From the NCBI GenBank assembly GCA_000004985.1, contig GG738912.1: 64,000 nucleotides of DNA. One strand, 5' to 3'. Of the stretch, positions 1,721-34,896 are shown piece after piece. Source of the DNA: Naegleria gruberi (taxonomy: Eukaryota). The notes under the pieces are model-generated. The model was not told the DNA's origin. It made no database searches and saw nothing but the letters and a program-made list of their open reading frames with translations. Both the position numbers and the translations under genes were made by a program. The stretch's first letter is position 1. Each line of letters begins with the position of its first letter.

Positions 1721-3172
1721 TTATTCATCTATTACAATTGAAACATCAGAGAAATGTCCAATATTTGATTGTATATGATACTTCAATCTAGTCTTGGTCA
1801 GGTTGTCTGTGGCTTTGAGAATTTGCTTACTGAGGAATGATTTACCATGATACGGAGATCCACTTTCCAGTAAAGCTCTCAAAAATAGAACATTTTCCTC
1901 CATGTCAACTAGATTGACCACATAGTAAGGCACTACTTCATGGTATTTTCTACACAATATCCAAAACTTGCTGAAGAAGTGTTCAAAAACTCGAAGAGGA
2001 TCAGTACTGTTTCCAACAAAATCTGGGAATATGGATTGTACATCGATGGATCCTGAAGAGATTCGCTTGGAAAAGATATCTGCCTTTGTGAAAACCAGTA
2101 CTTTTTGAGTGCCAGGATCTGTGAGTGTTGTATAGAATTTCTCCAGGTAATCAGTCACAAATGTTGTCCTCTTGCTCTTCTTCTTATCAATATCAGATAA
2201 GGGTACAAGGAAGAGCACAACTGGAGCTGATTTAGTATGATAGGATTGAGCCAGATTGTACACTCTGGGCTCTGTTTTGATTCCCCAAGAGAATTTTCCA
2301 TACTTGACACCTTGTTCTCTATTCTCAGTAATGTGTTTGTCATTTTGTGGATTACTAATGTCAGGTGCAAAGAACCTATCCTCGAGATAGGTCTTGAGGA
2401 GATATTCCACAATCTTAATACTTCCATTCTTCATATCTTTTTCAGATCCTTGAATAGTAATAGGCCTTTTCATTATAAAACTCAAATTATCCAACAAGTC
2501 AGCAATATTCTCTCCTCTAATATTTGGATTTGATTGTGCATAGCCATACTTATCATTGGAAAATTGAAAGAATGGTGTAAAGTATCCACAATCCAACAAC
2601 CTCTGATACGTACTCTTAATAGCAGGAATCATCCAAACAGTACTCAAATTATCAATCATTCCATTCACTCGATGAGTATCCAATAAACTATCCCAAATAC
2701 TATTCTCTTCAATAATTTCCACCTGTCTACCAAATGTATTCTTAATATCAGCATATTCACTTCCGAGAGATGAAGATCCCAACATTTCTGATGCGTTACT
2801 TGCTGATGAATAGCCATGAACCGAATGATTATGTTGATTCAGCTTTAATTCATTCAAAATTAATTGCATTGTCTTTAAACAAGTTTGTAAGACTTTGAGC
2901 TGGAATTGATAGCCGTACGAGGTAGATTCATTCGATGGAATGGGGAAGCCTGTGATGAGTGAAGTAATTGGTCCAGATGAGCCGAGAGATGATGATGAAG
3001 AAGGCTTTGCTTTTCCAGTTAACAAATCCAAAAGATCAGCCTTTCGGATCAATCTCAACAAGGTTGATTTACCACTATATGGCGATCCAACAATCACTAC
3101 TCCATAATTAAATTTACAAAGGAGAGTTGCTGCTGGATGAAATGTTTCTATTAAATTGTAATTATTATCCAT
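1721..3172 (-). CDS. divergent G-protein alpha-subunit-like protein (483 aa)
   Basis: P-loop VVIVGSPYSGKSTLL aligns to the G-alpha G1 motif KLLLLGAGESGKST. VVLFLVPLSDID matches the AIIFCVALSDYD region, and VLVFTKADIF matches the G4 motif ILFLNKKDLF. The switch II DVGGQ motif is replaced by LAQSYHTKSAP. An S-rich insertion lies in the helical-domain region. Confidence 0.6.
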   Translation of the reverse strand: MDNNYNLIETFHPAATLLCKFNYGVVIVGSPYSGKSTLLRLIRKADLLDLLTGKAKPSSSSSLGSSGPITSLITGFPIPSNESTSYGYQFQLKVLQTCLKTMQLILNELKLNQHNHSVHGYSSASNASEMLGSSSLGSEYADIKNTFGRQVEIIEENSIWDSLLDTHRVNGMIDNLSTVWMIPAIKSTYQRLLDCGYFTPFFQFSNDKYGYAQSNPNIRGENIADLLDNLSFIMKRPITIQGSEKDMKNGSIKIVEYLLKTYLEDRFFAPDISNPQNDKHITENREQGVKYGKFSWGIKTEPRVYNLAQSYHTKSAPVVLFLVPLSDIDKKKSKRTTFVTDYLEKFYTTLTDPGTQKVLVFTKADIFSKRISSGSIDVQSIFPDFVGNSTDPLRVFEHFFSKFWILCRKYHEVVPYYVVNLVDMEENVLFLRALLESGSPYHGKSFLSKQILKATDNLTKTRLKYHIQSNIGHFSDVSIVIDE

Positions 3173-3477: not shown

Positions 3478-5346
3478 ATGGTGGCCGAACAAGGTGGAAT
3501 TGTAGAAGTATCTAGTGATTGTGTTTGCATCAATGATGATGATCATCAATTTAATAATAATAATATTAGTAATTTAAATAATGTAGTAATAACAAATGAT
3601 GAACAACCAATCAAGACAAGATTCCAAGAATTACCCTTTGAAGTTTTGCTCCACATTATGGATTACTTCTTTCCTTTCTATTCTCACTTTGAAAAGGCTA
3701 CCCGAGAGAAGAGTAGTAATATTAATTTCACTGATCGTAGAAAATCCATCATGATACTGAGTGAAGTTTTGCATCGTGTATTCTCTGCTCCTTCTTTCAT
3801 GTTGGAAACACGAATTGTACAATGTGGTGGGGATGCCATGTTGCATTTCAACTCAAACCAGCAGGTATCATACAAGTATTTGAATACTAATCGCGACATT
3901 GATGTACGGGCATTGGCTTTACGACAATACATCATTGATGAGGTTATTTGTGAATTTTACAATTTAATTAGAGTTTCAAAGAGAACTTTCTATTCGTTTC
4001 TGATAGAGGATTGCTATGACTTGCTGGTTGTGAAATTGATTTGGGAAGGCCTACATCATTGTATCAGAAATCCTGACTTGGTACTTGACAATGCTATGGT
4101 AGATTTGGAAGAAATTCAGCCATTACCAGGCAGCCAGTATATTATTTCAGAGCCACTTTATTTATATGTTTTGAGATCGAGATTGGAGCCTATTTTGTTC
4201 GTTAGATTATTCCTTTCACAGCCAAGTTTTGGATTTTCCAATTATGTGACTTGGAAACTCGGCAAAAATGTAAATCTCACCAATGAAATCACAGAGTCTG
4301 ATTGGAGTTCATTCTTAGACTTTATTCGTGAGCAAGTTACTAGATATCCCCTACTGAAATCTGGTACAAAGTTCAGCTCCAGATTCCAGACTGAAGATTT
4401 TGTATTTATCAAGAAGTGTGGTTTTGATACAGATTCAATTGTAAAGCTGGTTTATATCGATTTGGATATTCCAATCGGAGCAGTGAGTACACTGAAATCT
4501 ATAGAATCTCCTATACTGTGGAAGGCCATTTTGGAAAGGAAGGGAAATAATTTCAGTGCACTTGAAATTTGCGAGGATGGTCCACTATTTTTAGCTGTTC
4601 TTAAGAATCTTAGATTAGATATTTTGGAATTAATAATGCAACTTCAACAAGAGAATTCATCAGACCTGGACTCGTTCTTCAATGGACTATTATCACCTTT
4701 ATACACACTCATTTCAGCATGTATGTATGATGATAATTTTGAAGAGAAGAGTGAACGAATAGGGCGTATACTAAAAACGATGAGAAGGAACTTTTTGCCT
4801 TTTCTTGATATATTTACAACTCCCTCATCCTGTCTTCACCTGCTTATTTCACGAACAGCTGAAATTTTCCAGTTCAAATTATCCTTTTATTATCCAACAC
4901 AGTACTGCAAGACAGTATTCCAAGTATTTTATCGAGTTTTTGTAGAGGAATTGGAGCAGTCACAGTATGAAATCCTTGCTGCAGGTTTGCCTAGCCTTGT
5001 ATTGCAAGCTGTTGGTGTTCCGTTTTTCTTTCCAATATTGTTTGATAAGAGTTTACCTCCATACATTCTAACTCTTCACAAGAGGATGCTTGCTAATCCA
5101 ACAGATGACATTTTTGGGATACTTTTGGAAAGTTATGGAGCTAAACCACAGCAAAGTATTTCTCCATTGAGAACTATTTTTGAATGTGTGAAAGAAAATC
5201 CATTTGCATTCAGAGACACTCTCATTCAAAATAATTTTGCAGAAAAGCTAAATGATTTTATCCAAAATATTCCCCAAGAAAATAATTCTATTGAAATAAG
5301 TGCTCTCAAAGAAATTCTCCAAGATTTAAATACTCTCTACAATTAG
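3478..5346 (+). CDS. hypothetical protein (622 aa) with poly-N tract and a possible F-box-like motif (LPFEVLLHIMDYF)
   Basis: Single long ORF; N-run near the N-terminus; the F-box assignment is weak. Confidence 0.55.
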   Translation: MVAEQGGIVEVSSDCVCINDDDHQFNNNNISNLNNVVITNDEQPIKTRFQELPFEVLLHIMDYFFPFYSHFEKATREKSSNINFTDRRKSIMILSEVLHRVFSAPSFMLETRIVQCGGDAMLHFNSNQQVSYKYLNTNRDIDVRALALRQYIIDEVICEFYNLIRVSKRTFYSFLIEDCYDLLVVKLIWEGLHHCIRNPDLVLDNAMVDLEEIQPLPGSQYIISEPLYLYVLRSRLEPILFVRLFLSQPSFGFSNYVTWKLGKNVNLTNEITESDWSSFLDFIREQVTRYPLLKSGTKFSSRFQTEDFVFIKKCGFDTDSIVKLVYIDLDIPIGAVSTLKSIESPILWKAILERKGNNFSALEICEDGPLFLAVLKNLRLDILELIMQLQQENSSDLDSFFNGLLSPLYTLISACMYDDNFEEKSERIGRILKTMRRNFLPFLDIFTTPSSCLHLLISRTAEIFQFKLSFYYPTQYCKTVFQVFYRVFVEELEQSQYEILAAGLPSLVLQAVGVPFFFPILFDKSLPPYILTLHKRMLANPTDDIFGILLESYGAKPQQSISPLRTIFECVKENPFAFRDTLIQNNFAEKLNDFIQNIPQENNSIEISALKEILQDLNTLYN

Positions 5347-6028: not shown

Positions 6029-7779
6029 TTATTGCGTTGGATCAAAGAATAAAACCAAATCCACTCGATTCTTGGGATTAGGGGAGGTGGTAAAAAGAGT
6101 ATCCTCAGAATCGTCAAATTTTCGAATCCATAATGCAAATTTTCGTAACGTTTCGCTGTCTACTTCTTGTATGTATATTTGCAATCGATCTTTGAACAGA
6201 CCTTTCTTTGTGCTCGTTAACTTTCGTTCTCTCTCACTTGGTAATAAGGTAAAATCGAATAGCTCATTATTAAATGTTATTGTTCTCGAATGGTTATCTT
6301 GGTTCTCTATGAATGACAGGTAAAATACGTTGGTATCCTTATATCTGGGACGCGAGGGATTATGTGGAAAGTGGATATCCACAAAACGTTGTTTAGCTAT
6401 TGGTGCAATATCCTTATGATGTACCAAGTTTTTCAATACTGTTTTTGTCAATTCCTTTCCATAATTCGTTCCACTATTTGGTTCATTCATCATGAAACAA
6501 GTTACAATAGCTCCGTGATATTGTTCATTTCTTTTAAACAATGCAGAGAGAATGTAAAATCTTGTTAAAATGTGAGAATTCTTCACAATGCTCAGAATAC
6601 AGTCATCGTCTCCAAAGTGTTTGGCCAATTCTATCAGCTTAAGCTTTGCTTCACAATCGGGTAGTGAACCATCAAGCAAATATTTTACATAGCTATTGAA
6701 TGTAGGCATTATAATAGGAGTTCTATCTTTGAAAGAGGAATTTCCAATATCAATAAAAACATTTGAATTTTTTTTGAGAATTGGGTGGTAATCTGTCAGT
6801 ATCTTTGAAAAGAACTTGGACCTTTTCAAATGCTTTACACATAAATTGTGATATTGATTTTCATAGCCAATCAAAAATTCTTTCTCTGGATCTAGAGTTT
6901 CATTCAGCTCTGAAATGATTTTGCCTTCAGGGAATTGTGCATGAGCAAAGTTCAACTCTGGTTCATCAAAAAAGAACTCTAAATCCACCGATCGATTTCT
7001 TGACTTGGAGAGCCAATAATTCGATGCTCCCAAATTCTGTTCCACTCCAACTCCTGTTAGATATTTAATTCCTACTTGTATCTGAGCTGCAACATCATCT
7101 CTCTTTGCTGCTTTCAAATACAACTCAAATGCTTTTTTGTAATCTTGTTTTACATGAATTCCAAATTCGTAAAATATTCCTAGGTTGTATATTGCATCCG
7201 AATCACCAATTCCAGCATACTCAGAATACCATTCAAACTCTTCACTAAAATCACGTTCCATTCCTTGAGAAAACATGAATAATCCAGAGGATTTAAAACG
7301 TCCAATTGCACTATTTGATTTTTCAAACCATTGCATAGCCATCATTACATTTTCCTTAACAACTTTTCCCTTCTCAAAGAAGGTTCCAATCTTGTATTTG
7401 GAAATTTCATCACCTTGTTCCGAGGCTTTCATATACCATTCCAATGCTTTTTCATAACTTTTCTGCACTCCCTTTCCTTCATCATACAACCATCCAATAT
7501 TAAACTGAGCATGAGCATCACCCTGTTCAGCAGCCTTCCAATACCACTCAAATGCTTTAACATAATCCTTTTCACTCCTCTTCCCTCCTCAAACAACAAT
7601 CCAACATTGTATTGAGCATCGGAATGTCCCTGCAAGGCTGCTTTCATATACCAATGCATTGCTAAGGCACAATCCTGCTTTACTCCATCAGAACCCTCAT
7701 CAAAACAAAGCCCCAAATTATATTGAGCATCAGCATCACCTTCCTCAGCTTGTTTAAGGTAAAGATCGAGCGCGGACAT
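6029..7779 (-). CDS. Sel1-repeat + BTB/POZ domain protein, interrupted by one frame break
   Basis: ORFs 7429-7779 and 6029-7489 both read as Sel1 repeats (…AEQGDADAQYNLGLCFDEG…, …GDAHAQFNIGWLYDEGKGVQKSYEKALEWY…). Adding one A/T to the T4 run at 7569-7572 restores GVKKDYVKAFEWYWKAAEQGD and joins them. The C-terminal third resembles the BTB region of the paralog at 10613-12228. Confidence 0.6.
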
Positions 7780-7946
7780 TTTTTTTAAAACAAATCAATT
7801 AATATCGCGTGATTGTTTTTGTGATTAAGGTGCGGCTTAATTGGCGCCAAAAATCTTATCAAATGATATTAAGGTGAAACACCTTTTGAGAATGTTGTGA
7901 TACTGGTACTATAGTATTCTGTAGAAGATTGATGAATCTAATTGAA

Positions 7947-8981
7947 TTAGTAGAATGGCTCTTCATCAAAGTTAAAATCATGATCATGAGTTGTTTCTGG
8001 GTTTTTGATTTGGGTGGTGGCAGAATTTTTCATTTCCTCGATTTGCAATCTTAAATTTTCTATTTGGGTCTTTTCTTCTTGGCGTTCTTGTTGAATTTTT
8101 TCAAGTTCTTGTTTCAGAGTTTGCATTTCTTGTTTCAATTGGGTAACAATTTCTGTTAAGTTTTCTGTTAATGGTGGTGGTGGAGAGAGTGGTGAAGAGA
8201 AAAGTTGCCTGGGTGTAGTTGCTAGTTCTTCGCTTGATTCAATTATTGATTGGTGAATTGGAATAATAGGTTGCAACATTAGCATGTTTTCCATTGTTGG
8301 AATTAACTGGAGGGGTTCATGCTCTTGTATTTCTCTACTCCTTTTTGGTGCAGAGTCATTATCGGCCTCACTTTCATTGGATCTTTTACCTGTTTGATCT
8401 TTCACTTCGAATGCACTCTCTGAAATAAACCAATCCAACCTTTCTGGATTTTCTACATCCTTTTTATGAGCGAAACACAATAAAATTCGAAACTTTCCAC
8501 TTCTATCATCCTTTTTGAAAAATCTACACTTTTCAGTTACGAAAATGTCGCTCAATATTGATTTCTTCTTATTTCCATTTATCGTCTTATTCTTTTCCAC
8601 TAATTTACTCATTGTTGTAATCTTTTTCCGAATATCAAAGAATGCAAATGCATAAATTGCTTTATATTTGGCAAAATTTGTTATAGAAATTTCAAAGGCT
8701 TTTCTTGTAAATGTAACATCACTCAATTTTAAATTAATAATTCCAGCATTTTCGTTCGGATCAAGAAAATTTCTATTCTCCTTCTGAAAGTATTCATCAA
8801 TTTTATGTTTAATTTCCAAGCCTTCCGAATCAACATCCGATTTATTATCCTTTGCTTGCTTAATTTTGAGAATTAATTCCTCGAGAATTTCACTTGTTAT
8901 TGAAGATAGTCCCGATGATGGTGATGAAGGTGTTTGTGGTGGTAAGAGACGAAAAGTTTCCCAGTTTTCCGTATCAGACAT
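7947..8981 (-). CDS. hypothetical protein (344 aa) with C-terminal coiled coil
   Basis: Single ORF; the C-terminus (LTEIVTQLKQEMQTLKQELEKIQQERQEEKTQIENLRLQIEEMK) has heptad-like periodicity. Confidence 0.5.
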   Translation of the reverse strand: MSDTENWETFRLLPPQTPSSPSSGLSSITSEILEELILKIKQAKDNKSDVDSEGLEIKHKIDEYFQKENRNFLDPNENAGIINLKLSDVTFTRKAFEISITNFAKYKAIYAFAFFDIRKKITTMSKLVEKNKTINGNKKKSILSDIFVTEKCRFFKKDDRSGKFRILLCFAHKKDVENPERLDWFISESAFEVKDQTGKRSNESEADNDSAPKRSREIQEHEPLQLIPTMENMLMLQPIIPIHQSIIESSEELATTPRQLFSSPLSPPPPLTENLTEIVTQLKQEMQTLKQELEKIQQERQEEKTQIENLRLQIEEMKNSATTQIKNPETTHDHDFNFDEEPFY

Positions 8982-9163
8982 TTTTTTATAATTTGTTTTT
9001 AATTTTTATTTAATTCCTATTTTAGGTGGAAGAACTATTCCTTTTGCAAATATTGATTGCAAATATTAATGCTTTTCACATGTTTTACAAAACGAAAAAT
9101 TACTTTGAAAGTGCATATAATATAGAAATATTAACTAATATTTACTAAAAAAAGAAAATAAAT

Positions 9164-10186
9164 CTATTTTCTGAGAGGAGAAACTTGAATTTGAGCAGAC
9201 ATCATAACATCCATAGTACCTCCATATTCCAAAGTGACTACGAATGGACCATCTTCAATTTGATTAGCCACGAGGGAGGTTTGAGTTTTCAATTCCTTTT
9301 TGGTGGTGGAATGAACAGCCATGTTGGAGTTGAATGGATTTGGATACAATATTGTTGGAAAGGTGGAATGGTAGAGAGTGTATGGTTTGATCATGTCATA
9401 ATTATTGTTATTCAAAATTGTTGTAAAGTTAATTCTTGAATTTCCTGGAACATTTTCAAAAGTGAATTGAACAGAATTCAAACCAGATGCTCTTTGATCA
9501 TTAATATAGACATGTTCATAAAAATTGGTGGATTTGACATTAACAAACTTGGAAACTCCTGAATAAACAGCAACTGAAACTGTAACAGGATGAGACGAAA
9601 GTGTAATAACACTCAAATAAACAATATAAACCACAGGAGATTGAACATAATTTGGAGCATAGAGAGTTGCATTAATACCTCTTCCACCAAACAATGAATT
9701 TTCCTTAGTTGGTTTTCCATAAGCAATAGATCCATAAACTAAAACTGAACTATTCTCAAATCCCTTAATATTATTCAGGAAAGTAACTTCTGAACCCAAA
9801 AGTGGATCATAATTGAGAGTATCAATATCACTTTGAATACTAATGTAATAATAAGTAGGTTGCTTATTATCAACAAGAAGGACTTGTCCATGTTTGATTT
9901 CCTTGGCATCTGACGGCAAATCAGTAGCAAAACAAACAGTTCTCTCCTCATTACTGGCAGCTGGACATTTCATGCATGAAGTCGAGGCCTTTCTGGTGGA
10001 AATAGTTCCTGGTGGACACTTGTTGGCAGAATCATTTCCTGGACAGTAATAACCATAGTCACATGGGAGGCAACGATCGAGATCGTTTGGAGTTGGTGCA
10101 TAGTAATAACCAGGATCACAAGCGAATGCAAGGGTTGTGAAGAGCAAGATGGCAGAAATGAGTGTTACTGACAAGTGTTTAGACAT
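9164..10186 (-). CDS. secreted protein with Cys-rich N-terminal module (about 340 aa; an alternative upstream ATG lies at 10258)
   Basis: MSKHLSVTLISAILLFTTLAFA is signal-peptide-like; followed by CDPGYYYAPTPNDLDRCLPCDYGYYCPGNDSANKCPPG and then a long beta-rich domain. Confidence 0.55.
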   Translation of the reverse strand: MSKHLSVTLISAILLFTTLAFACDPGYYYAPTPNDLDRCLPCDYGYYCPGNDSANKCPPGTISTRKASTSCMKCPAASNEERTVCFATDLPSDAKEIKHGQVLLVDNKQPTYYYISIQSDIDTLNYDPLLGSEVTFLNNIKGFENSSVLVYGSIAYGKPTKENSLFGGRGINATLYAPNYVQSPVVYIVYLSVITLSSHPVTVSVAVYSGVSKFVNVKSTNFYEHVYINDQRASGLNSVQFTFENVPGNSRINFTTILNNNNYDMIKPYTLYHSTFPTILYPNPFNSNMAVHSTTKKELKTQTSLVANQIEDGPFVVTLEYGGTMDVMMSAQIQVSPLRK

Positions 10187-10612
10187 TTTGTTTTTTTTGT
10201 TTCGAATAGGTTTGCAAGAAAGTTGTGTAATGCATTTTATTGCTATTTGAAAGGTCACAACGCCGTTGATTTTACATCCATTAAAGGAAGAGTGGAAGGA
10301 TACTTTGTTCTTGGAAGTAAATATTTTATAAACTCCGAAAACTCCTTTTCACAAAGATTGGTTTTATTAATCTCCTATTGAATTGTAAACTATCTTTCAT
10401 TTATTACAACTCCAAAGCAGAATATTTAGATACCTCACAGGTGTTGATTCTCTTTGATTTTACAAGAAACTGGAAGAAACTGGAAAAATCATATCTTCTC
10501 AATGACCGAAAAGCAAACTCACAACTATCTCTAAAATTCTCAATAGAAACTAAGAAATAAACCTCCAGTAGAGCGAACGGTTCGTAGAACTTCCAACTTT
10601 ATTTAATTTTAG

Positions 10613-12228
10613 GGGAGGAATTTCATAACAGAGGAGAACACGCAAAAGGCTTTGATTGTTTTTGTAAAGGTTATGAAATACACAAATCCAGCGAGTTGGA
10701 GCATGCAATTGGTTGTTGTTATACATTCGGATTGGGAGTTGAAAAGGATTATTCTAAAGCAAGGGAATGGTATTTGAAAGCTGCTGAAAAGGGATTTGCA
10801 AATTCACAAAATAATCTTGGTATGATATATGAAAATGGATTAACTGTTGAAAAGGACTTGGCTGAAGCACTGGAATGGTATTTGAAAGCTGGTGAAAATG
10901 GTGATCTAACTGCTCAAGTAAATCTTGCTCGGCTCTACCGTGACGGTGAGGGAGTTGAACAAGATTATTTGAAATCATTCGAATGGAATATGAAAGCTGC
11001 TGAAGCTGGGGATGCAGAAGCTCAAGTTCACATTGGCTATGCATATGATAAGGGTCTAGGAGTTGAACAAGATTTTTCGAAATCATTCGAATGGAATTTG
11101 AAAGGAGCAGAAAATGGGAGCCTAGATGGTCAATTTAATGTTGGACTTTTATTGGAACTGGGGGATGGAGTTGAAAAAAACATCAAGAAATCTGTGTTTT
11201 GGAAATCAAAGTGTTTTAATAGGTCAAAATGTTTTGACTTTGTAGAAGAACCTTACGAGCAGTTTGCTATGCAATATTTTACATCAAATACTGAGGATTG
11301 GAATCAATCCTCACCAAATAGTGACAAAGAACACGTAGTCGTACGATTTGAAGAGAAGGATTTCACACTTTCACAAAAGCATTTAAAGCATTCAAAATAT
11401 TTATCAACCATGATGAATTCAAATTGGAAAGATTTCAATGTCAAAGAGAAAAACCGAACCATACTTGATTTGAGAACCATTCAAAATGATATATTTCAAG
11501 AACAAACAGATATCATTCAAATATTTAATAATTATGTGAACTACTTAACAAATGAAATATTACCACCAGATTTTGACATGAAATTGAAATTAATTGAACT
11601 GTCAAGATATTTACAAGATGACGGATGTATATTGAATATTGTCAAAGAAGCAAGTATTCTGCAGAGATTTTACATTCTTTTGATATTAGAAATTATTGTT
11701 GAACCTATTCACATTGCAATTACTAGTTGTTTTGCAGCAGAAACTAAATTTAAAATCAATGATCTCTCAGAAAATGTTATTGAAAAATTACTCACTCAGT
11801 CTGGCCTATCTCAACATGGAAAGGACGAGATTTATAATGTATTTAAAGAAAAATTCAATGGATATCCTATAGCAATCAGTAAGTTGATCTATATTCAATT
11901 CTAATTTTTCCAACTTAATTTAGATATGAATATTCTTCATGTAACATTTTCAACGCTTAAAGAGAAGAAACTAATTCATTTCAATCAAGAACAAGTCGAA
12001 TTTTCTTTGGAATTGGGTAAAGATATCGATAACACTATTTTCAATATCAACAGCTCGCATGATGTTCAATTCTTTGGAAAGAATGCCAAGTTATATATCC
12101 AGATATCGAGTAGTGTTGATGGAGTATATGGATTTTGGTTGGATAACAGTTCTGAAAAAGGAAAAACTATTTTCATTTTACCTGAGATTAACTTTGAGGC
12201 ACTTAACTTGATTATAATGACTACATAA
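10613..12228 (+). CDS. Sel1-repeat + BTB/POZ domain protein; multi-exon with the 5' exon not located
   Basis: Sel1 repeats (AEKGFANSQNNLGMIYENG…, GDAEAQVHIGYAYDKG…) are followed by a BTB-like block (EHVVVRFEEKDFTLSQKHLKHSKYLSTMMNS). The frame is open from a TTTTAG acceptor at 10612 with no in-frame ATG before it, so an upstream exon is implied. Intron 11879-11924 (GTAAGT..AATTTAG) joins ORF 10696-11904 to ORF 11926-12228. Confidence 0.55.
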
Positions 12229-12286
12229 TAAGGCCAGTTATTAAGGTGTGTTTGGGGTTTATTTTCATTATGTTTTTGTAATTATT

Positions 12287-12613
12287 TCACACTTGTTGAG
12301 ATTTAGTGATTCGCAACCATCGAATGAGTTCTAAATTCTCAAGTACAGGGCTTTGACTGCTCCAATATCCACCATTTACTATTTCTTCTGTACAGGGCAT
12401 CCAAAATATCTCATCAGGAGACCAAAACCATCCATTGGTATCCATTTTTTTGAAATATATTGGGCTTACAAAGATGCTATCAACTTTGTGAATGAAAACT
12501 CCATCTGGTCTGTGAGGACGATTGGAAAAGACATCTACAATGAATTGAAATTGAGTGGCAGACCATCTCTTAGAGAATAATGCAGTCAATATCAAATATC
12601 CAACAAGCTCCAT
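12287..12613 (-). CDS. small putative secreted protein (108 aa)
   Basis: N-terminal MELVGYLILTALFS is hydrophobic; ORF bounded by AT-rich spacers; no homology recognised. Confidence 0.35.
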   Translation of the reverse strand: MELVGYLILTALFSKRWSATQFQFIVDVFSNRPHRPDGVFIHKVDSIFVSPIYFKKMDTNGWFWSPDEIFWMPCTEEIVNGGYWSSQSPVLENLELIRWLRITKSQQV

Positions 12614-12792: not shown

Positions 12793-15700
12793 TTACTTTT
12801 TATTGAGCAATGAAAGCGAGGATAAAAGGGCAACACCAGTTTTTCTTTCCTCTCCGTATTTGAATTGTCTAGTTACAAGGTTGAGTCGTTGATGGAATTG
12901 TGACTTGAGGACAGCTCGTTGTTTGGCAGTGAGGAATCTTCTTCCAATTGCTTGAATTGTTGTGGTAGATGATAAAGTTTGTTCAGAAAATTGAGTGGTC
13001 TGTTTTCTTGTAAAGGAACCTCGCAGCAAACCTTGGATAGTTTGTAAATTCTCATTCTTGATGCTTAATTCAACTCTCGTTCTTGATCCCTCAATTGCTG
13101 ATCGAATAGTGAACACCTTATCCGTTATACTCTTGAGTGATTTGGCTTGTTGAATTTGTCTGACTCGGGCTTGCAATAGCGAAATACTACTCAGAGCAAA
13201 TTCAAATTCATTCCTCTTATTGTGACACATAAAGAGAAGAGCGACAGTGTTAGATAACTCCTTCATATCAGTGAGACTCCCTCTCGTTTCATGACCATAA
13301 TACAAGCTCTGAAGATAGTTGGCAGAGTCAGAGACAGTTCTGAAATCTTCATTGACAAATCGTCCTCTAATAATACTCTGCAATGCGTTAATATATTGAA
13401 TGTTGGTATTAAGATCTCTGATTGCAATCTGTTGTTGCATGAGTGATTGAATGGATTCTGTGAGTATTTGCATTTTTTTGAATTCTTGTCTTGTTTGATT
13501 GGCTCTGTAGAGGGCAATGATCATATTTCTAGAATCGAGTAGAGAATCTCTGTCCTCATTAAAAGATCTTTTCACTAGGTTTGACCTGAAAAAGGTCTGA
13601 ATGACAATTAGTCCGCTCATTTTCATATCTCTTTGTTTGAGAGTTGTGAAAGTTCTCACCCTTGATTGAAAGATTTTCATATCTTTCTTTTTCTGATATG
13701 TTTTGAGAATGGTAGTCTTTCTTTCCAATAAGGATTGTAAAACAGTGGCCAGAGTGATAGACTTGCTAAAAGATCTTCTTGCAAGTTGCGATTTGAAGAG
13801 AGCTTGAATGATAGCAATATTTTCTCTGGTTTTTTCAATTCTTCTTTCTTCAGACATTCTATGGACAATAGATTGAATTGTTTTGATGGATTCGGTTGTG
13901 GTGGACGATTGTCTCCTGGTAGAAATTCCATGTAAGCGAGTTGTGACAATTTGAACTTTGGTCATAGAATTTGCATATTGTTTTCTAACTAGACTGGAAC
14001 TCATGAAGGTTGAAATTAAATCCATTTGAGAGGATATTCTTTCGAAAGTCTTCAATGCTAGTTGTTTTCTGCACAAGGACTGAATGTGAGTGAGAGAATT
14101 GATAACTTCTTCTCTACTGGTTCTCGCAGAATATCCTCTTGATGCAGCTTGGAGAGTACCAACACGTTGTAATTGATTTTCATGATTTTTCCTATCTGTA
14201 TTTCCTCTGGCAGCATTTTGAATTATAGTAATTGAATAGTATCTCCTTTCGTTTTGGTATTCTTGTTGAATTGAACGGCTTCTACAGACAGCTTGTAAAT
14301 TAAGAATATGCTTTTCGATACGTGATCTTGTGGAGAGTTGAATGAACCCCTTAGCAAATGATGTGAAAATCTGCAATCTCTCCTGTTCAAGGGTGGTTGC
14401 ATTTCTTTGACTTATGCCATTCCATAAAGATTGAAGTAAAATGACTTGATTGATAGAAGTAGCTTTTTCGTCTTTGGCTTGTTTTCTTCTTAATAGTGAT
14501 TGAAGAGCACTAACGTCTTGAATAGCTTCAGCATTTTCCCTACGTTTGTATTTACCTTGAAAAGCTGCTTGGATGGTGACTAAATCATGTTGAGCTCTTT
14601 CATAACCAGATCTCACAAGGACTCCTTTGGCAAGAGCATGTACATACTTGGTAAATGTTTGGAGTGCATGTATGTTTGATCTTTCCTTGTTTGCTCTCAC
14701 TAATGCTTGAATCATTTGAGTGGCATTCCTATCAATAGGAGAATAATTGTTCTTTTTAGATGATTTGTTTCTAATCAAAGCTTGCAAGACAATAATCTTG
14801 TTAAGGGTTTGATTTTTCAACATGTTGATATTTCTAGAATTAGCCAGTGCTTGTAGAGAAATTAAATCTGAAATGTGTTGCTTTCTGCTCTGTTCTTCAG
14901 CTTTTCTCCTTACCAATGCTTGCAATACTATGATACCAGAACAATCCATGTGAGTCGTGCTTCCTCTTAAAAAGGCTTGAATTATTGTTATATTTTCTAG
15001 TTGCTTTGATTCTATGTTTTGCATTGCAGAGGATCTACATCTAGCTTGTATTGCTAATACTGCATTCTTGGATATTTCAAACTCTGCTCTTGTAAATCTA
15101 TTTCTGATTAGTGACTGGATAATTTCAATATTGTTTAAGGAGTTTTTTACCAATAGTCTGGTCTTATTTCCTCTAAGGAAGGCACAAACCATTGAACTTG
15201 AACTAGTTTGTTTATCCAATTTCTTTTGTACTATTTTTGATCTTATTAATGATTCCAAAGTTTCCAATCTTTTCAAATCCAATTTCATCTTGGCAGCTTC
15301 AGATGATTTCCTAATAGTACTTTGAAGATTGGTAACAAATGCCATGCTGGTTTGAGCTAGTCTTCTTTCCATGCCTGATTGTATTAATGCATGAATAAGA
15401 TGAACACTCTCAATAGGGGATGCATGTTCAGTCCTTTCCTTGTGAGAAATTATTAAATTTTGTATCATGGAGACTGCTTCAAGTTGGTTAAGTTTGCTGG
15501 CAACTGTTGAGCTTGATCTAAAAGCAGATTGAATGGTAATAATTTGATTCTGCATGCGATTTCTACTAGTTCTTTCTGTATTACCTTGTAGCAAGGCATG
15601 CAATAGATTCACTCCACCTCTAATTTTTTGTTCATTAAACTTCCTGATAGTGGCTTGAGCAACAACCAACTTTTGAATATAAACCCTGCCATGGGAATTG

Positions 15701-18700
15701 TTCCTAACAATATGTCCTCTAATAAGAGCTTGCAAACTTGAAATTCGCTGCTTTTCACTCTCCAAACTAGCAGACACAAGGTTGGATCTTGCTGCTGATT
15801 GTATAATTTGAATTTGTTCCATCAATTTAAGCTTGACTTCTCTTTCTATGCATCCTTGGTTTAGTGTTTGAACAATTGTGGCAACATCTCTAAAAGCAGA
15901 CATTTGGAGCTTTTCAACCAGAGATTTTCCAAGTGATTGAAAGGTCAAAATAGCATCTTTTTGTCTACCATCGTTGACCCTTGTAAAGTGGCCAACTACA
16001 GCGCTTTGTATTATCTTGGTATTTCTGATTGCCTTCTCGGTTTCCCTACATTTCAAGAATCTCCTGACCAAAGATTGCATTATTTCCACCAAGTCCCTTG
16101 TTAAGTAAAAGGTTTGCCTTAATGATCTACCTTTAAAAAAAGATGCAAGGGTATTACTATCCTCAAAACGGTTCCTTACCAGAGCTGACTGTAACAAGGT
16201 TGAAATAATATCTATTTTGGACTTTTCTTGTTCCGCTAATCGCCTTGTGTTGAATGACCTAGCACTCAATGAAAGGATAGAAATCATGTCCAAATGAGCT
16301 TGTTTGCTTGTCATTACATGTTTTCCTCTGATTGCACTCTGAATTACAAGCACTTTGGTTAATTGATACATGTCCACATGGTTATTTCCACGTCCTCTGA
16401 AGAAGGCCTGAATATTAGTGATACTATCATGTACATGTGAAAAATTCTTCCTTTCCAAATATCCTCTAATGAGAGCTTGCTGAGTGTTGATGTGGTTTTT
16501 GGTAGGTTGTAGATTTTTTCTCTCATCTCTTCCTCTCATGCTAGATTGCAAATTGATGATGTAAATTGTGTACTGTTCATGTTGTGCACGTAGCGTGTGA
16601 GAAAGAATGAGAGATTGTAAAATCTTGATGTTGTTGATGCATGTTTCCGATTGTTTTCTATTGATGTATGCTCTTCCGAATGTTTCAACTAAAAGAGAAG
16701 AGTCAATCAAGTCCTGATGTTCCTTCAACTTTGCATGTCCTCTTACCACAGCTTGAACATATTTGGTGTTGTTTGAAAGGGTTGAAAGGTGAGCCTTTTC
16801 CAATTTGCTTCTTATACGAGCTTGTAAAGTTTTGATCTTGTTCAATTCATTGATGAAATCTCCTCTACAGAAAGAGGATTGTAAAAAACCTTGTACGATT
16901 TGAACATTTTCTACATTTTCAATAAATTTGTTCTCTGTCAATTGTCTTCGGGAAAGTGATTGAATAACAGTAACATATTCATTAACACTGCTTTCTATTT
17001 TCCTGGCTATAAAACCACGTACCGAAGCTTGAAGAGTCAAAATGTTATAGTGGTTATGTCTAAAGGATTTGATTTCATTCTTTTTACGAATGTTGGATTG
17101 CACCAACAATACGTTATTCATTTGTTTCTCTTGTTCTTGAGTTATTAAAAAGGTCTTGACTCTTGCCTGAAGAGTTATTATTAAACTCTTATTTTGTGAA
17201 AATTCCTTTCGTGCAAAGTTTCCAAATAAAACAGATTGGGTATTCACTAAATCTTCTCTTCTGGCAGATAAATCTTTTCTTGTGAGATAAGATCTAGCTG
17301 CAGTTTGAATCATTCTCAAGTTCGCAACACTGTTTCTAAACAAGCATCTTGTTTCGAATGTCCTTAAAAGTGCCTGAGTAAAACAGATTCTAATTAGTTC
17401 ATTCTTATGCTCCAAACGTTGCACATGACCTTTCATGAGAGAACCTAATATATTTGAGCTTTCAGTTGTGTGTTTAACAAGTTGATTTTCAATTTTTCCT
17501 TGATATAATGTTTGAATTTGATGGGCCAAATTAATTTTAACTTGAAAACCACGTCTAGTCTGTACGCCTCGCAGCCATGATTGTATAGTCGAAACCTTTC
17601 GTTGAGTTTGGTGCATCAATGAACGGTTTAGCTTCCCTGAGAAAGACGCTTGAATACTATTGATGGCATTAATTCGATGCTTCAAATCAATTCTTCCCAA
17701 ATGTCCCTTGATTGAATGCTGTAAAGTTTGAACAGCATTTTGCAAGGAATGCTTATTTACTTGCTCCAATGTGCCTCTTGCTCTTGACTGAATTAGATGG
17801 GCAGCATTTCTCGTATCATAAAATTTCATCTGTCCACTGTGGCCACGAGCCAAAGAGGTCAAGAGAAGTGCCTTATCTAAATCCGTGCAAGCTTGCGAAG
17901 CGGTATTAATGCTCCTTAATAGAGTTTGAAGAAGCAACACACCCTTTTTAAGATCTGTATATTCCTTCCTTCTTGCGACAGCGTCAATTAAAGTTTGTAG
18001 GACAAGCACGTCCGATTTATACCTTTGGACTACCTTTTGTTGTTCTAGTCCACGACCATTGGCTTGAAGAAGGGAAGCAACTTGCACATATTGAGATAGG
18101 TCCTTTCTTACAAATAAAGATCTTGAAACAGGTTGAACAAGGATAGCAACGTGTTTCTTCTTTTTAAAGTCTAGGAATACCTTTCTTGCACAACAAACAG
18201 ATTGAATTAAAGTGGATGCATTCAACGCTGAATCTTTGAATTTCTGAATCAATTTGGCTCTTATAAGCGATTGTACAAGTGTAATTCTATTACATTGTTC
18301 TTTAAAGGTTGTACGAGCATTGAAACCCCTGATTGCACTATCCATAATCAAACATTTTGAATTCAAAGATTTTCTGTTTCGGTATTCGATAAATCTTCTG
18401 GAAAGCGTTTGAATGGTAGTAATGTCATTGATTAGATGGTTCAAATTGGATTGGCATTGCTTGACCCTTATCAAGGTCTGTATTGCTTGGATATTAGAAA
18501 TTTCCTTAGAGGAGTCTTGTTTCAAAAGTATTCTCCTGATCAATGCCTGAAGTAATGGAATGGATTCACTAGTGGTTTGATATTTCTTTCTCTGATTGCA
18601 TCCTAGTATCGTAGATTGAATTACTTTGATATTTTCCATAGAAAGAGTAAAGCATTTAGCTTGTTGTCCAGCTCTGAATAATCCTTGGATTACTACAGCA

Positions 18701-21700
18701 GAGTCCAAACTTGTTGTGAGATTAGTTCTTTCCAATCTTCCAACTAATGCTGCATTGAATAGATGAGCCAAATTTCGGAGCAATTGCAGGTTTTTCCTAC
18801 TAACATTAGAAGACATCATAGCTTGCAAAACCTCAATTGAGGAGGAGAAGATTACCATTTCCTGCCTGTCAGAAGAACCCTTGATGGATGCTTGCAGAGT
18901 GAGTAAAAAATTCTCCAATTGGCTCACTTCCTTCATTGCTGCTCTTCCTCTAACAAGACTTTGAAGCAATATTATCCTACTTGTCAAAACCGAACGAGAA
19001 TGTTTAACTGATAATGCCTTGGAAAGAGCTGTAAATATTTCGGATCTATCCAATTCGAATCTATAAATTTGTCCTTCTCCTTTGCCTCTGCAAAAGCTTT
19101 GCATTATCTGTATGGCTTCCTTCTTCGATTGTAAATCTTTTTGCTTATGATGTCTCCTTACAAGTGACTGTAAAGTAATGATTTGTTGAATATTGTGTCT
19201 TGTGAAGGAGACTAATAATCTAGACCTTGAAATAGACTGAAGAATTACAATTTGTTGAATATTCTTTGCAAAACAACCTCTTTCAAGTTTTGATCTGGAG
19301 AGCGATTGAATACATTCCAAGTTCAACTTGTTAGAATTGAAATCTTCTTGTTGGTATCTTCTTCTGTGCCAAGTTTGAACGGTGAGAGCAGTAACCCTCA
19401 TCAGATTGAATGTCTCTCTGATTCTATTAGACTCGCACAACACTGCAATGTTTGAAAGGGCTTGAGTCCTGAACACCTCAAAGGCAAAGAGTGAACAAAC
19501 TCTAATTAACTCTGCATCCTCGACAAGTCTTTGGTCTTCCATGATTTCGTCCTCCTCTCCAAAATAAGGTCTCATTCTCGGTATTTCACAATTGTCAGGA
19601 TAGCAATCATAATTAAATCTAACTACAGCCTCCATGAACTCGATAATGAAAAGTGGAATATACTTGAAATCAAGTGGGAATAGCCGTATTTCGTTCAAGT
19701 ATGGGAAGAGTTGTACTTGAACCCATATCAACAAAAGGGGAACCGTAGATTTTGCATCTTCTTCTACCACCTCATCTACCTTTTTGCTTGTTGTCGAATA
19801 GTAATGTTCATTCATTTTGGTGAGAACGGATTTAAGTTTTTCTCCATCATAGTGAACCAGTAGAGCTTCGTGGAAAATGTGTGAGAGAGGGTGTTCATCT
19901 CCAATTTTCATCAATGACTTGTAATTTTCCACATACTTTTCTGCATCTTCGATTGATATCTTTTCAGAAATCAAGTCAACTATACCTCTAACATTATCAC
20001 CTCTAGGATCTAATTTTTCAATTTCCTTTCTCAAAATTGCTGGGGTTAGTTTGGATTTAATCTTATCCAAAGAAGTAGGTTCCTCTGGGAATTGTATTCC
20101 TTCTTCATCTGAAATTTTTTCAATTTCCGATTGGTCTGATGATGACTCTCTGCCATGTCTCTTCAGTGGAGGTTCTTCATAATTTGCCAGAGATTCTAAG
20201 GATGTAACCTTAGCCATATCAGTGGATGTTGGTGTTGAAGGAGTTTTTGCCTTTTTGGCAAACTTGTTGAAAAAACTTTTGATTTTTTCACTTTTTGTCT
20301 TTTTTCTTTCTAATAGTTGACTACTTGTCAATGCTATTTGCGTATTACTATATGTTGATTCATCATCATCAAGTGTATCCAAACTCTGTCCTACAGAACG
20401 GCTGAAATTATTGTTTCTTGCTGGTGCTGATGCAACAGAAAATGCAGTGAAATTACTGTGAGAAGAAATTGTATCAAAAAGATCATCCCTTTCCACAGAT
20501 CCCTTCCCATCCATTAGACTGATTTTAAATGATTTGGATATATTCATGGCTTGAGATCTTCTGACTGGACTCTTTGGAGTTGTTGAGCCAGAAGCTTTTT
20601 CAGCCAGCTCTGAAAAATTGACACCCTTTCTTCTTTTCTGAGACAAATCTTTGTGTACTCCATTAAATTCTGTCAACTTGACTAGAACTTCACTCACCTC
20701 ACTATTAACATGAGAATGGGTTGTGGTTGTACTTATTTGAGAGGCAAAGGTGTGAGTATATTGTGAATATTGAGATTCTTCTGGTGATACAGGTGTTGCT
20801 GTTTCCTTCTTTTTTCTTTTTAATTTTGTAATTATGGAAGGCAACTTTCCTAGTAGAGATTTTGATCTTCCTTTCGTGGTTTCCTTTGTTATTGGAACTA
20901 CTATAGAGGGAACAACAACTAGAGGTCCTTGAAAATTATTGTTTGCTGATGCTGATGTATTACTGGTACCAGTATGATTAGGTGTATTTCCACTAGAAAT
21001 ATCCGATGTATTCATATCATCAAAATCATTGTCAGATTCATTCTCCTCTCCTTGCATATCATTCTCTGTAATATCATCAAATGATGCTCCATACACTCTA
21101 TTGCCATGTTGAACATTTTGAGTTGATGGTGTAATGCTGGATGCACTTGGTGGTGGTGAGGGTCTTCCTCTTGGTGAAAATTCATTCCTTGGAGAACGAC
21201 CATTTGGCATGATTGACCTAGGTGATAATAAGTTACCTCCTCTCGGAGTGTATAAATTGTGAGCTAGTGAATGTGATCGATGTGTACGACCACCACTCTT
21301 GGATGAAGATGTTGTAGATGCAAGTGAACTCTTATTTGAATTATTTCTAAATCTACCAACAGGTCTATTCTGTACAGGTGGTTTACTAATTACTATGGCT
21401 ACAGGTGTGGAGGAATTAATTGATGGTGAATTATCGCTATTATTGTTGGTTTGTTTACTCGATGTTACTAAATTATTCGAATAGATTATTACTCCTCCTC
21501 CATTAGTTGAAGAAGTACTTGTTCCATTCTGATTATTAGGTATTTGTCTATAGAAGGAAGAAGATGAATGTAGGGATGTATTGCTATTATTGTTACTATT
21601 ATTGAAAAGGGATGCTGGATTGGAATTTTGAATGGCAGAAAGTTTTAACTGGGGAATGACAGCAGGTACTCTTTTCGAGGAAGTAGAAGAGAAGGTAGAT

Positions 21701-33834: not shown

Positions 33835-34896
33835 TTATTGTAATGAACACCAAGAATTATCAGTTTCTGGTTTGGATTTTGGAGAGCTTTCTTTTCTTTC
33901 CTCTAGTATTTTCCATGAATTTGAGAATAAGCATTCCAAATGAATAAACCTTGAGGGTAGATTAATGTTCTGCATTTGGGCTGCGTTGACCTCTACATAA
34001 ATTGAGTTGAATTCATTTATGGCTAGTTCACAAGCCTCCTGTTGAGTAACTTGTCTTGTGAATTTCTCTTCTCTTGGGTAGAATCCAAGTAAAATTGCAA
34101 CTGTATTTGGAGCAAATTGTTTCCACAAAGGAATCCAATATTTCGAAATATCTGTAAACGAGCATCTATTGTCAATAGAAAAGCTGAATACCAATATAGA
34201 CGCAGAGTGCAGAAAGGATCTTGCTACAATTCCAGTAGTTTTGGCATAATTGAGAATTGATCCATGCCACACTTGATGTTTCAATTTAAAATTTAAAAAG
34301 TCACAATCTCTAACAATGAAATCTGCTCCAATATTAGGAAGTAAATGAGGTGAATAACATCCACTGGCGAAACTTCTGAAAAATCTTGATTTACCCACTT
34401 TCTTATTTCCAATAATGGCATACTTGATATATCTTTTGTCTTTCCTTTCATTTTTCTCATCTTCAATCTTGGTAGATCCCAATTGATTCTTATAGAAATT
34501 GAATAATTTCAGCTCATTGGCAACTATTTTCTTTTCCAATTTATCAGAAAAGCCAAGCAAATAGTATCGAATAATAGTTAATCTATTTCGCCTAATATGT
34601 ATTCTTCCTTCATGAGTATTCACACAACGACAGGAAGAGTTTGTATCTACTCTCTCAGAAATTCTATTATTATTATTATCACTCTCTCCATCATCATAAT
34701 AATAATAAACTTTTAAATTTTCTAATTTAAAATTCCGATCATCATGATTATTGAAATTATTTAATTGTTGTGATGATATATAGAATCCATCAATTAATTC
34801 TTGAACTGTTCGGGATATTCCATTCAAACTAGCCAAAACATCAATAGGTTCTAGAAAGGACACGATTTCAATCCATTCATCATTTAAACTTTCCAT
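33835..34896 (-). CDS. F-box-like N-terminus + Rab/Ras-like domain with degenerate G3/G4 motifs (pseudo-GTPase candidate)
   Basis: N-terminus WIEIVSFLEPIDVLASLNGISRTV is F-box-like. KYAIIGNKKVGKSRFF is a GxxxxGKS P-loop; PNIGADF is the Rab switch I TIGVDF; QVWHGS replaces WDTAGQE; GFYP replaces NKxD. Confidence 0.5.
   Translation of the reverse strand: MESLNDEWIEIVSFLEPIDVLASLNGISRTVQELIDGFYISSQQLNNFNNHDDRNFKLENLKVYYYYDDGESDNNNNRISERVDTNSSCRCVNTHEGRIHIRRNRLTIIRYYLLGFSDKLEKKIVANELKLFNFYKNQLGSTKIEDEKNERKDKRYIKYAIIGNKKVGKSRFFRSFASGCYSPHLLPNIGADFIVRDCDFLNFKLKHQVWHGSILNYAKTTGIVARSFLHSASILVFSFSIDNRCSFTDISKYWIPLWKQFAPNTVAILLGFYPREEKFTRQVTQQEACELAINEFNSIYVEVNAAQMQNINLPSRFIHLECLFSNSWKILEERKESSPKSKPETDNSWCSLQ

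What the first reader, a model, noticed from the sequence alone, without database searches (positions are those of the whole stretch)
6029..12228. Two divergently oriented Sel1-repeat–BTB paralogs flanking two unrelated genes
Seen in sequence: the gene at 6029-7779 (−) and the gene at 10613-12228 (+) both have tandem Sel1 (TPR-like) repeats followed by a BTB/POZ-like block, and their C-terminal regions are alignable. Established knowledge: Sel1–BTB or Sel1–kinase fusions are lineage-specific expansions in some AT-rich early-diverging fungi (Glomeromycotina). Inference: local duplication of a family that is probably large genome-wide; candidates for CUL3 substrate adaptors.
Basis: partly seen in the sequence, partly recalled or inferred. 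Interest (0 to 1): 0.5.

Follow-up and report, generated by a model that had tools for sequence, protein, structure and literature searches.

The report
Naegleria Sel1-repeat proteins with hidden BTB
Two neighbouring, oppositely oriented genes of the amoeba Naegleria gruberi (not a fungus) encode Sel1 repeats followed by a very divergent BTB-fold domain that only structure prediction detects; they belong to a small family and are a modest annotation gain, not a surprise.

Summary
Both genes (6029-7779 minus; 10588-12228 plus) carry Sel1 repeats (Pfam E 5e-51 and 2e-42). Their C-terminal halves are homologous (tblastn 1e-21).

- The window is Naegleria gruberi (Heterolobosea), not Glomeromycotina.
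- The family is small. Five predicted N. gruberi proteins and two metagenomic clusters were found among 1.84 billion representatives.
- Gene 2 is closer to three paralogs on other scaffolds (53-55% identity) than to its neighbour (28%). Any local duplication is therefore old.
- Gene 1 has a 1-nt frameshift inside a Sel1 repeat.
- Gene 2 has no start codon for its first repeats, and its public model skips a homologous last exon.
- A Cul3-adaptor role is plausible but untested. A W-K-D triplet sits where the phi-x-E Cul3 contact lies, followed by a BACK-like helical extension.

Verdict: a new, divergent member of a known kind; low to moderate interest.

The parts
6029..7779 (-). Gene 1 (NAEGRDRAFT_74228 / XP_002670754): Sel1 x7, then a BTB fold, a helical extension and a ~100-aa tail. 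It is interrupted by a 1-nt frameshift.
   Evidence: ORFs 7429-7779 and 6029-7489 overlap in different frames. Pfam Sel1 5e-51 on the repaired protein. Identity with P0001.
7004..7779 (-). Gene 1 Sel1 repeat array (7 repeats of ~36 aa; repeats 4-5 are degenerate)
   Evidence: Pfam PF08238; 108-nt periodic direct repeats D2/D3; translation.
7569..7572 (-). A4 run where one base is missing relative to the 108-nt repeat period. Reading GVK|KDYVKAFEWY with one extra A restores a perfect Sel1 repeat.
   Evidence: Three-frame translation. Repeat spacing 315, 108, 107. The public model bridges the site with a 29-nt GT..AG 'intron' (7547-7575) that deletes VKKDYVKAFE.
6581..6880 (-). Gene 1 BTB-fold core (B1-B2-A1-A2-B3-A3-A4-A5)
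6371..6571 (-). Gene 1 helical extension after the BTB core (possible 3-box/BACK-like region)
   Evidence: Helices 145-211 of the model. Foldseek alignments of 180-244 columns to KBTBD4, A55 BTB-BACK, KLHL11 and SPOP. Low confidence.
6029..6331 (-). Gene 1 C-terminal tail (~100 aa, unknown fold), including the stop codon
   Evidence: pLDDT <50. Weakly similar to the gene 2 last exon (pairwise E=0.003; 4 of 500 shuffles reach the score).
10588..11878 (+). Gene 2 (NAEGRDRAFT_53333 / XP_002670707) main exon: Sel1 x5 plus a partial first repeat, BTB fold and helical extension. The frame is open from 10588; the first in-frame ATG is at 10822.
   Evidence: Pfam Sel1 2e-42. P0002 identity.
10588..11211 (+). 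Gene 2 Sel1 repeat array
   Evidence: Pfam. Direct-repeat family D1, 4 copies at exactly 108-nt spacing. Translation.
11332..11646 (+). Gene 2 BTB-fold core
   Evidence: AF2 model, (mean pLDDT 82.2, pTM 0.76). Elements E4-9, E12-17, H18-21, H25-32, E39-49, H64-77, H84-96, H100-108. Foldseek PDB top 50 are all BTB proteins.
11425..11433 (+). W-K-D triplet in the A2-B3 loop. It has the same spacing from the 'S.yF..mF' helix as SPOP M-E-E and GMCL1 W-K-E (the phi-x-E Cul3-contact position).
   Evidence: hhalign register against SPOP. HMMER alignment to the GMCL1 BTB. Secondary structure. Coordinates. Inference only.
11656..11856 (+). Gene 2 helical extension (3-box/BACK-like)
   Evidence: Helices 112-178 of the model. 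Full-length (~189 column) Foldseek alignments to KBTBD2, KBTBD4, KLHL11 BTB-BACK and vaccinia A55 BTB-BACK, TMq 0.41-0.47.
11879..11923 (+). 45-nt intron of gene 2 (GTAAGT...TTTAG), phase 1
   Evidence: Sequence. Splicing keeps the frame and joins an exon homologous to the gene 1 tail.
11924..12228 (+). Gene 2 last exon (C-terminal tail, including the stop codon). It is skipped in the public gene model.
   Evidence: tblastn of the gene 1 C-terminus aligns through 12174. BLASTP. Tail-only E=0.003. P0002 instead ends with sequence from 12397-12580.
7947..8981 (-). Intervening gene 1 (context): 344-aa coiled-coil, low-complexity protein, unrelated
   Evidence: Only sub-threshold Pfam hits.
9164..10258 (-). 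Intervening gene 2 (context): ~340-aa protein that looks secreted and Cys-rich by eye, unrelated
   Evidence: No Pfam hit.

Best explanation
The two genes are old paralogs of a small Sel1-BTB protein family in Naegleria gruberi, which also has a few uncultured relatives.

Each protein has three parts:
- an N-terminal Sel1 (TPR-like) solenoid of 5-7 repeats, which would bind the partner protein;
- a highly divergent BTB/POZ-fold domain with a helical, BACK-like extension;
- a ~100-aa tail of unknown fold.

Most likely mechanism (inferred, not shown): the BTB domain self-associates and docks onto a cullin-3-type scaffold. The Sel1 solenoid, placed N-terminal to the BTB as the MATH domain is in SPOP, would then present a bound protein for ubiquitylation.

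Shown here: domain content, fold, paralogy, organism and family size.
Inferred: oligomerisation, Cul3 binding and substrate recruitment.

Both window copies have integrity problems. Gene 1 has a frameshift. Gene 2 has no start codon for its first repeats. One or both may be decaying or mis-assembled.
For: Sel1: Pfam 5e-51 and 2e-42; 108-nt periodicity.

Paralogy.

Organism and gene identities.

BTB fold, from two independent AF2 models:
- Gene 2 segment, pLDDT 82, pTM 0.76: Foldseek top 50 all BTB or BTB-BACK, with whole-query alignments to the Cul3 adaptors KBTBD2, KBTBD4, KLHL11, A55 and SPOP.

The secondary-structure order B1-B2-A1-A2-B3-A3-A4-A5 matches the BTB core.

The non-significant sequence alignments still fall in the correct BTB register (SPOP; GMCL1). 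They place W-K-D/E at the phi-x-E position. This triplet is kept in gene 2, P0003, P0004, P0006 and P0007.

Family size: 7 relatives at E<1e-10 in 1.84 billion representatives.
Against: - No sequence method supports BTB. Pfam finds nothing at E<=10 for any of the 7 members. PDB profile searches are non-significant. hhalign gives P=0.09 and 0.16.
- The fold evidence rests on predictions from a 7-sequence alignment. The gene 1 model is poor overall (pLDDT 51.5).
- The match to BTB-BACK proteins over the extension is loose (TMq <0.5, rmsd 7-9 A).
- Gene 1 has a deletion where the W of W-K-D should be, and P0005 has W-R-N. The putative Cul3 contact is therefore not universal.
- Cul3 binding, self-association and even the presence of Cul3 in N. 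gruberi were not tested here.
- No expression data or literature exist for these genes.
Confidence: 0.5

Rival explanations
1. The BTB fold serves only as a self-association module and does not bind cullin, as in BTB-ZF factors or KCTD/T1 domains. The proteins would be oligomeric Sel1 scaffolds that cluster a bound partner, with no role in ubiquitylation.
Against: The longest Foldseek alignments, covering the whole 185-residue model, are to genuine Cul3 adaptors with BTB-BACK (KBTBD2, KBTBD4, KLHL11, A55, SPOP). The arrangement of an interaction domain followed by BTB and helices mirrors MATH-BTB adaptors (established knowledge).
Confidence: 0.3
2. One or both window copies are pseudogenes, or decaying members of the family. 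They would be remnants of an old inverted duplication and no longer make the full protein.
For: Gene 1 has a 1-nt deletion inside a conserved Sel1 repeat. The only way to bridge it is a 29-nt GTGAAA..GAG 'intron' that removes conserved repeat residues. Gene 1 is the most divergent N. gruberi member (20-32% identity to the others) and lacks the W of the W-K-D motif. Gene 2 encodes Sel1-like sequence from 10588 but has no in-frame ATG until 10822, and no convincing upstream exon was found.
Against: Apart from the single frameshift, the remaining 486 codons of gene 1 are open, and its BTB-region residues are conserved. A single missing base in a homopolymer may be an assembly error or an allele. 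Gene 2 has an intact frame, a clean intron and a conserved tail, and could start at M10822 or at an undetected 5' exon.
Confidence: 0.3
3. The block is not a BTB domain at all. The resemblance would be a small alpha/beta fold that AlphaFold drew towards a common template-like solution.
For: All sequence-based tests are negative. The alignment has only 7 sequences.
Confidence: 0.07
4. One reading: members of the large Sel1/BTB expansions of Glomeromycotina fungi.
For: Sel1 and BTB families are expanded in Glomeromycotina (PMC8647823, PMC9453076). The window is AT-rich.
Against: The proteins are exact matches to N. gruberi RefSeq entries on a 238-kb scaffold. Only 5 N. gruberi and 2 metagenomic relatives exist in 1.84 billion representatives, and none is fungal.
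Confidence: 0.01

Closest known systems
MATH-BTB Cul3 adaptors (SPOP and relatives)
   Different: The binding module is a Sel1 solenoid, not a MATH domain. There is no significant sequence similarity (P=0.09-0.16). E is replaced by D at the phi-x-E position, or the motif is absent. Cul3 binding is untested.
BTB-BACK(-Kelch) proteins (KBTBD2, KBTBD4, KLHL11, gigaxonin, vaccinia A55)
   Different: There is no Kelch propeller. The substrate-binding candidate lies N-terminal, not C-terminal. The extension matches BACK only loosely (TMq 0.41-0.47). Pfam BTB and BACK models do not hit.
Germ cell-less (GCL / GMCL1) BTB
   Different: E=1.6, which is not significant. GMCL1 has no Sel1 repeats.
Sel1-like repeat proteins (Pfam PF08238; e.g. 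SEL1L/Hrd3, Helicobacter Hcp proteins, Legionella LpnE/LceB)
   Same: Clear membership of the repeat family. Scores are far above the gathering threshold, and the 36-aa period is present.
   Different: From my own knowledge, those proteins are Sel1-only or ERAD-linked. Here the array is fused to a BTB fold.
Glomeromycotina Sel1 / BTB / kinase gene-family expansions
   Same: The same two domain classes appear in an AT-rich genome.
   Different: A different eukaryotic supergroup (Discoba versus Fungi). The family has 5 members, not hundreds or thousands. No fungal sequence relative was found in the exhaustive search.

Membership tests
Sel1 repeat (Pfam PF08238) | Profile match above the curated gathering score (30.7 bits) | tested here: met
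   169.7 bits for gene 1 and 142.5 bits for gene 2.
Sel1 repeat (Pfam PF08238) | Tandem ~36-residue repeat period | tested here: met
   108-nt start-to-start spacing in both genes. One spacing of 107 nt marks the gene 1 frameshift.
BTB/POZ domain (Pfam PF00651) | Sequence-profile match at or above Pfam's threshold | tested here: not met
   No BTB hit at E<=1 for the full proteins or at E<=10 for any of the 7 family members. The precomputed Pfam annotation lists Sel1 only.
BTB/POZ domain (Pfam PF00651) | Significant profile-sequence or profile-profile similarity to known BTB domains | tested here: not met
   PDB hmmsearch: GMCL1 E=1.6; none with a BTB-only profile. hhalign against SPOP P=0.09 and against a 22-sequence SPOP-family profile P=0.16. 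The register is correct, but the scores are not significant.
BTB/POZ fold | Core topology B1-B2-A1-A2-B3-A3-A4-A5 | tested here: met
   DSSP element order in both AF2 models. These are predicted, not experimental, structures.
BTB/POZ fold | Structural similarity to solved BTB domains above background | tested here: met
Cul3 substrate adaptors (BTB type) | phi-x-E motif in the loop before B3 that contacts Cul3 | tested here: inconclusive
   W-K-D in gene 2, P0003, P0004 and P0006; W-K-E in P0007; W-R-N in P0005; W deleted in gene 1. The position is inferred from the SPOP and GMCL1 register and the A2-B3 loop of the model.
Cul3 substrate adaptors (BTB type) | 3-box / BACK helices following the BTB core | tested here: inconclusive
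   Four to five helices follow the core. They align with BTB-BACK proteins over ~189 columns, but at TMq 0.41-0.47 and rmsd ~7 A.
Cul3 substrate adaptors (BTB type) | Physical binding to the Cul3 N-terminal domain; BTB self-association | not testable with these tools
   Needs a complex prediction or biochemistry.
Cul3 substrate adaptors (BTB type) | A Cul3 orthologue in the same genome | not tested
No cullin lies in the window. Expected from general knowledge of eukaryotes only.
Glomeromycotina Sel1/BTB expansions | Encoded in a glomeromycotinan genome as part of a large family | tested here: not met
   The source is Naegleria gruberi. The family has 5 plus 2 members.

The most novel reading that the evidence does not exclude
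A Heterolobosea-restricted class of cullin-3 substrate receptors in which a Sel1 solenoid, rather than MATH, Kelch or a zinc finger, is the substrate-binding module. Its BTB domain has diverged beyond the reach of Pfam, so the family has gone unannotated as ubiquitin-ligase machinery.
Probability: 0.35. Interest if true: 0.35.

Novelty: new member of a known kind. Interest (0 to 1): 0.2.

Why it matters
It adds a fold-level annotation (BTB with a BACK-like extension) to five N. gruberi 'predicted proteins' that databases list as Sel1-only. It gives a testable candidate set of Cul3 adaptors in a deep-branching eukaryote.

It also corrects two public gene models: a frameshift-bridging pseudo-intron and a skipped terminal exon.

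It does not open a new biological question.

Tried and rejected
- Word-index protein search with the gene 1 C-terminus found nothing, not even the gene's own database entry. This is a limit of the tool, not evidence of absence.
- Exact-sequence contig look-ups for two neighbouring ORFs and for P0003 and P0004 failed, because N. gruberi is not in that index.
- A three-row alignment meant to include exon 2 misaligned and was dropped.
- The PDB profile hit to NDUFA1 (E=0.021) lies in the acidic low-complexity linker and was dismissed. The UGGT and NAIP hits are noise.
- Pattern scans of viral contigs and JGI metagenome contigs found no relatives. There is therefore no sign of a giant-virus origin, but the method needs near-exact 7-mers.
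- A search for a 5' exon of gene 2 gave 70 formally possible ATG/GT/AG combinations. All start inside the neighbouring gene's coding region and none is convincing.
- The tail of metagenomic relative P0006 shows no detectable similarity to the window tails.
- A literature search for the five locus tags returned nothing.
Full report
**What is at the coordinates.**
The region holds two genes on opposite strands.
- Gene 1 (minus strand, 6029-7779) appears as two overlapping ORFs in different frames, 7429-7779 and 6029-7489.
- Gene 2 (plus strand) appears as ORFs 10696-11904 and 11926-12228.
- Between them lie two minus-strand ORFs, 7947-8981 and 9164-10258. Neither has a Sel1 or BTB signal. One has only sub-threshold coiled-coil hits and the other has none.

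**Sel1 repeats.**
Pfam PF08238 matches gene 1 at E=5e-51 and gene 2 at E=2e-42. The DNA shows the expected 108-nt period in both genes. By eye, gene 1 has seven repeats, two of them degenerate. Gene 2 has five repeats plus a partial first one.

**Paralogy.**
Whole-protein BLASTP gives 1e-63. More to the point, the non-Sel1 C-terminal halves find only each other in the window (tblastn 6e-21 and 1e-21; all other hits E>=1).

**Gene structure problems.**
- *Gene 1.* One base is missing in an A4 run (7569-7572), inside the second Sel1 repeat. With one more A the sequence reads GVKKDYVKAFEWYWKAAEQGD, a perfect repeat. The repeat spacing there is 107 instead of 108 nt.
- *Public model of gene 1.* P0001 = XP_002670754 bridges the site with a 29-nt GTGAAA...GAG 'intron' that deletes ten conserved residues. 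I read this as an annotation workaround for a frameshift. The cause is either a sequencing or allelic error, or recent pseudogenisation.
- *Gene 2, 5' end.* The Sel1 frame is open from 10588, and its first residues (Y..LG) match the paralogs. There is no in-frame ATG before 10822, and no credible upstream exon.
- *Gene 2, 3' end.* A 45-nt GTAAGT...TTTAG intron (11879-11923) joins exon 11924-12228 in frame. This exon is weakly homologous to the gene 1 tail (tail-only E=0.003, 4 of 500 shuffles).
- *Public model of gene 2.* P0002 = XP_002670707 skips this exon and splices to about 12397. That is probably an error.

**Organism.**
An exhaustive HMMER search used a profile of the two C-terminal regions against 1.84 billion representative proteins. 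It returned 8 hits at E<=0.001. Seven of them have E<1e-10; the eighth (P0008, E=1.3e-06) is an unrelated-looking repeat protein.

Cluster look-up shows that P0001-P0005 are Naegleria gruberi predicted proteins: NAEGRDRAFT_74228, 53333, 76213, 59403 and 61597. They lie on four scaffolds. P0006 and P0007 are unnamed metagenome proteins.

Window GC (32-37%), dense and mostly intron-free genes, and the published N. gruberi statistics (33% GC, 1.7 exons per gene; PMC8296547) all agree. The Glomeromycotina inference is wrong. The literature does support separate Sel1 and BTB expansions in those fungi.

**Family size and history.**
At least five predicted proteins belong to the family in N. gruberi, with two related clusters elsewhere. 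A second, word-indexed search added none, and viral and metagenome pattern scans found none. This is a small family, not a large expansion. The count is a lower bound, because only predicted proteins clustered at 50% identity were searched.

Over the C-terminal region, gene 2 is 53-55% identical to P0003, P0004 and P0005 on other scaffolds, but only 28% identical to gene 1. Two of five members lying 3 kb apart in a 41-Mb genome is unlikely by chance (roughly 0.003 by a simple estimate, which is inference). An old local inverted duplication is therefore plausible. The two are not each other's closest relatives, and gene 1 is the divergent outlier.

**Is it a BTB domain? Sequence tests say no.**
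- Pfam has no BTB hit at E<=1 for the proteins, or at E<=10 for any of seven family members.
- phmmer and hmmsearch against PDB sequences give nothing significant.
- hhalign gives P=0.09 against SPOP. It gives P=0.16 against a 22-sequence SPOP-family profile built for this purpose.

Even so, the weak alignments fall in the right BTB register. The only BTB protein picked up, GMCL1, shares the motif Y[FL]S[ST]M..[NS].[NS]WK[DE].

**Fold tests say yes.**
- *Gene 1 C-terminal model.* It came from a 7-sequence alignment. It has mean pLDDT 51.5 but 58-85 over residues 40-160, with the element order B1-B2-A1-A2-B3-A3-A4-A5.
- *Foldseek on that model.* The top 50 PDB hits are all BTB proteins. The best is KBTBD4 at 3.3e-4, and BTB-only chains have TMt 0.6-0.65.
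- *Gene 2 BTB-plus-extension model.* It is confident (pLDDT 82.2, pTM 0.76) and has the same topology.
- *Foldseek on that model.* The top 50 hits are again all BTB. Whole-query alignments go to the Cul3 adaptors KBTBD2, KBTBD4, KLHL11, A55 and SPOP, at TMq 0.41-0.47.

I conclude that the block is a genuine but extremely divergent BTB fold, followed by a helical extension that resembles 3-box/BACK only loosely.

**Mechanism.**
*Shown:* the order Sel1 solenoid, BTB fold, helices, then an unknown tail.

*Inferred from established knowledge of BTB proteins:* self-association through the BTB domain, and possibly docking on cullin-3. The Sel1 array would act as the substrate or partner receptor, in the same N-to-C order as MATH-BTB (SPOP) adaptors.

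*In favour of Cul3 binding:*
- The best full-length structural matches are Cul3 adaptors.
- W-K-D/E sits in the A2-B3 loop with exactly the spacing of SPOP M-E-E and GMCL1 W-K-E, the phi-x-E contact described in the Cul3-BTB structural literature (my own knowledge).

*Against:*
- The motif ends in D rather than E in the N. gruberi members.
- It is W-R-N in P0005 and is disrupted by a deletion in gene 1.
- The BACK similarity is weak.

I put the architecture and fold at about 0.9 and the Cul3-adaptor function at about 0.4. The main rival is an oligomerising scaffold with no ligase role (0.3). A pseudogene or decaying state for one or both window copies overlaps with both readings (0.3).

**Novelty and verdict.**
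The proteins are listed publicly as 'predicted protein' with Sel1 only, and no paper mentions them. Recognising a cryptic BTB fold and the small Sel1-BTB family is a useful annotation. So are the two gene-model corrections. It remains a new, divergent member of known domain classes.

Interest is low to moderate (0.2). If the proteins prove to be Cul3 receptors with a Sel1 substrate module, restricted to Heterolobosea, interest would rise to about 0.35.

Noticed in passing
window 7547-7575 (-): The public N. gruberi model XP_002670754 removes a 29-nt GTGAAA..GAG 'intron' that encodes conserved Sel1 residues. It looks like a gene-caller workaround for a 1-nt deletion in an A4 run (7569-7572).
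   Followed up: yes
window 11879-12580 (+): The public model XP_002670707 skips the homologous exon 11924-12228. It splices instead to about 12397-12580, a stretch antisense to ORF 12287-12613. This is probably a mis-annotated 3' end.
   Followed up: yes
window 12793-22275 (-): A single 3160-aa uninterrupted ORF. It has a low-complexity N/S-rich N-terminus followed by a very long array of IQ calmodulin-binding motifs (Pfam IQ 3.2e-22), reminiscent by eye of ASPM-like proteins.
   Followed up: partly
window 44721-47429 (+): A USP7/HAUSP-type deubiquitinase (UCH, USP7_ICP0_bdg and USP7_C2 domains, E down to 2e-63). The ORF lacks an ATG at its start, so an upstream exon (probably the MATH domain and the first part of the catalytic domain) must exist.
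   Followed up: partly
window 3478-5346 (+), 33835-34896 (-), 56955-57929 (-), 58427-59731 (+): Several ORFs contain short F-box-like motifs by eye (e.g. LPFEVLLHIMDYF, IPSDVIIIIFDF). One of them (33835-34896) also carries a Ras/Roc GTPase domain (Pfam 1.1e-13). Pfam reported no F-box at E<=0.01.
   Followed up: partly
window 35905-37110 (+): A 401-aa Lys/Cys/Tyr-rich protein that looks secreted by eye. It ends in four tandem KVDTYKPPK repeats and has no Pfam match.
   Followed up: no
window 1721-3172 (-): A divergent G-protein alpha-subunit-like protein, barely above Pfam's threshold (49.5 versus 48.8 bits). Only the C-terminal part of the domain matches.
   Followed up: no
L001 2002-4053 (JGI metagenome 3300002220): Metagenomic relative P0006 encodes the full architecture in one 683-aa ORF: about 9 Sel1 repeats, a BTB-like block and a tail. 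It is also annotated Sel1-only. It shows that the family exists outside the sequenced N. gruberi strain, in an unidentified eukaryote.
   Followed up: partly
tool behaviour: The word-indexed protein search failed to return the database entry that contains the query sequence verbatim. The exhaustive HMMER search found it. Negative results from the indexed search should not be read as absence.
   Followed up: yes
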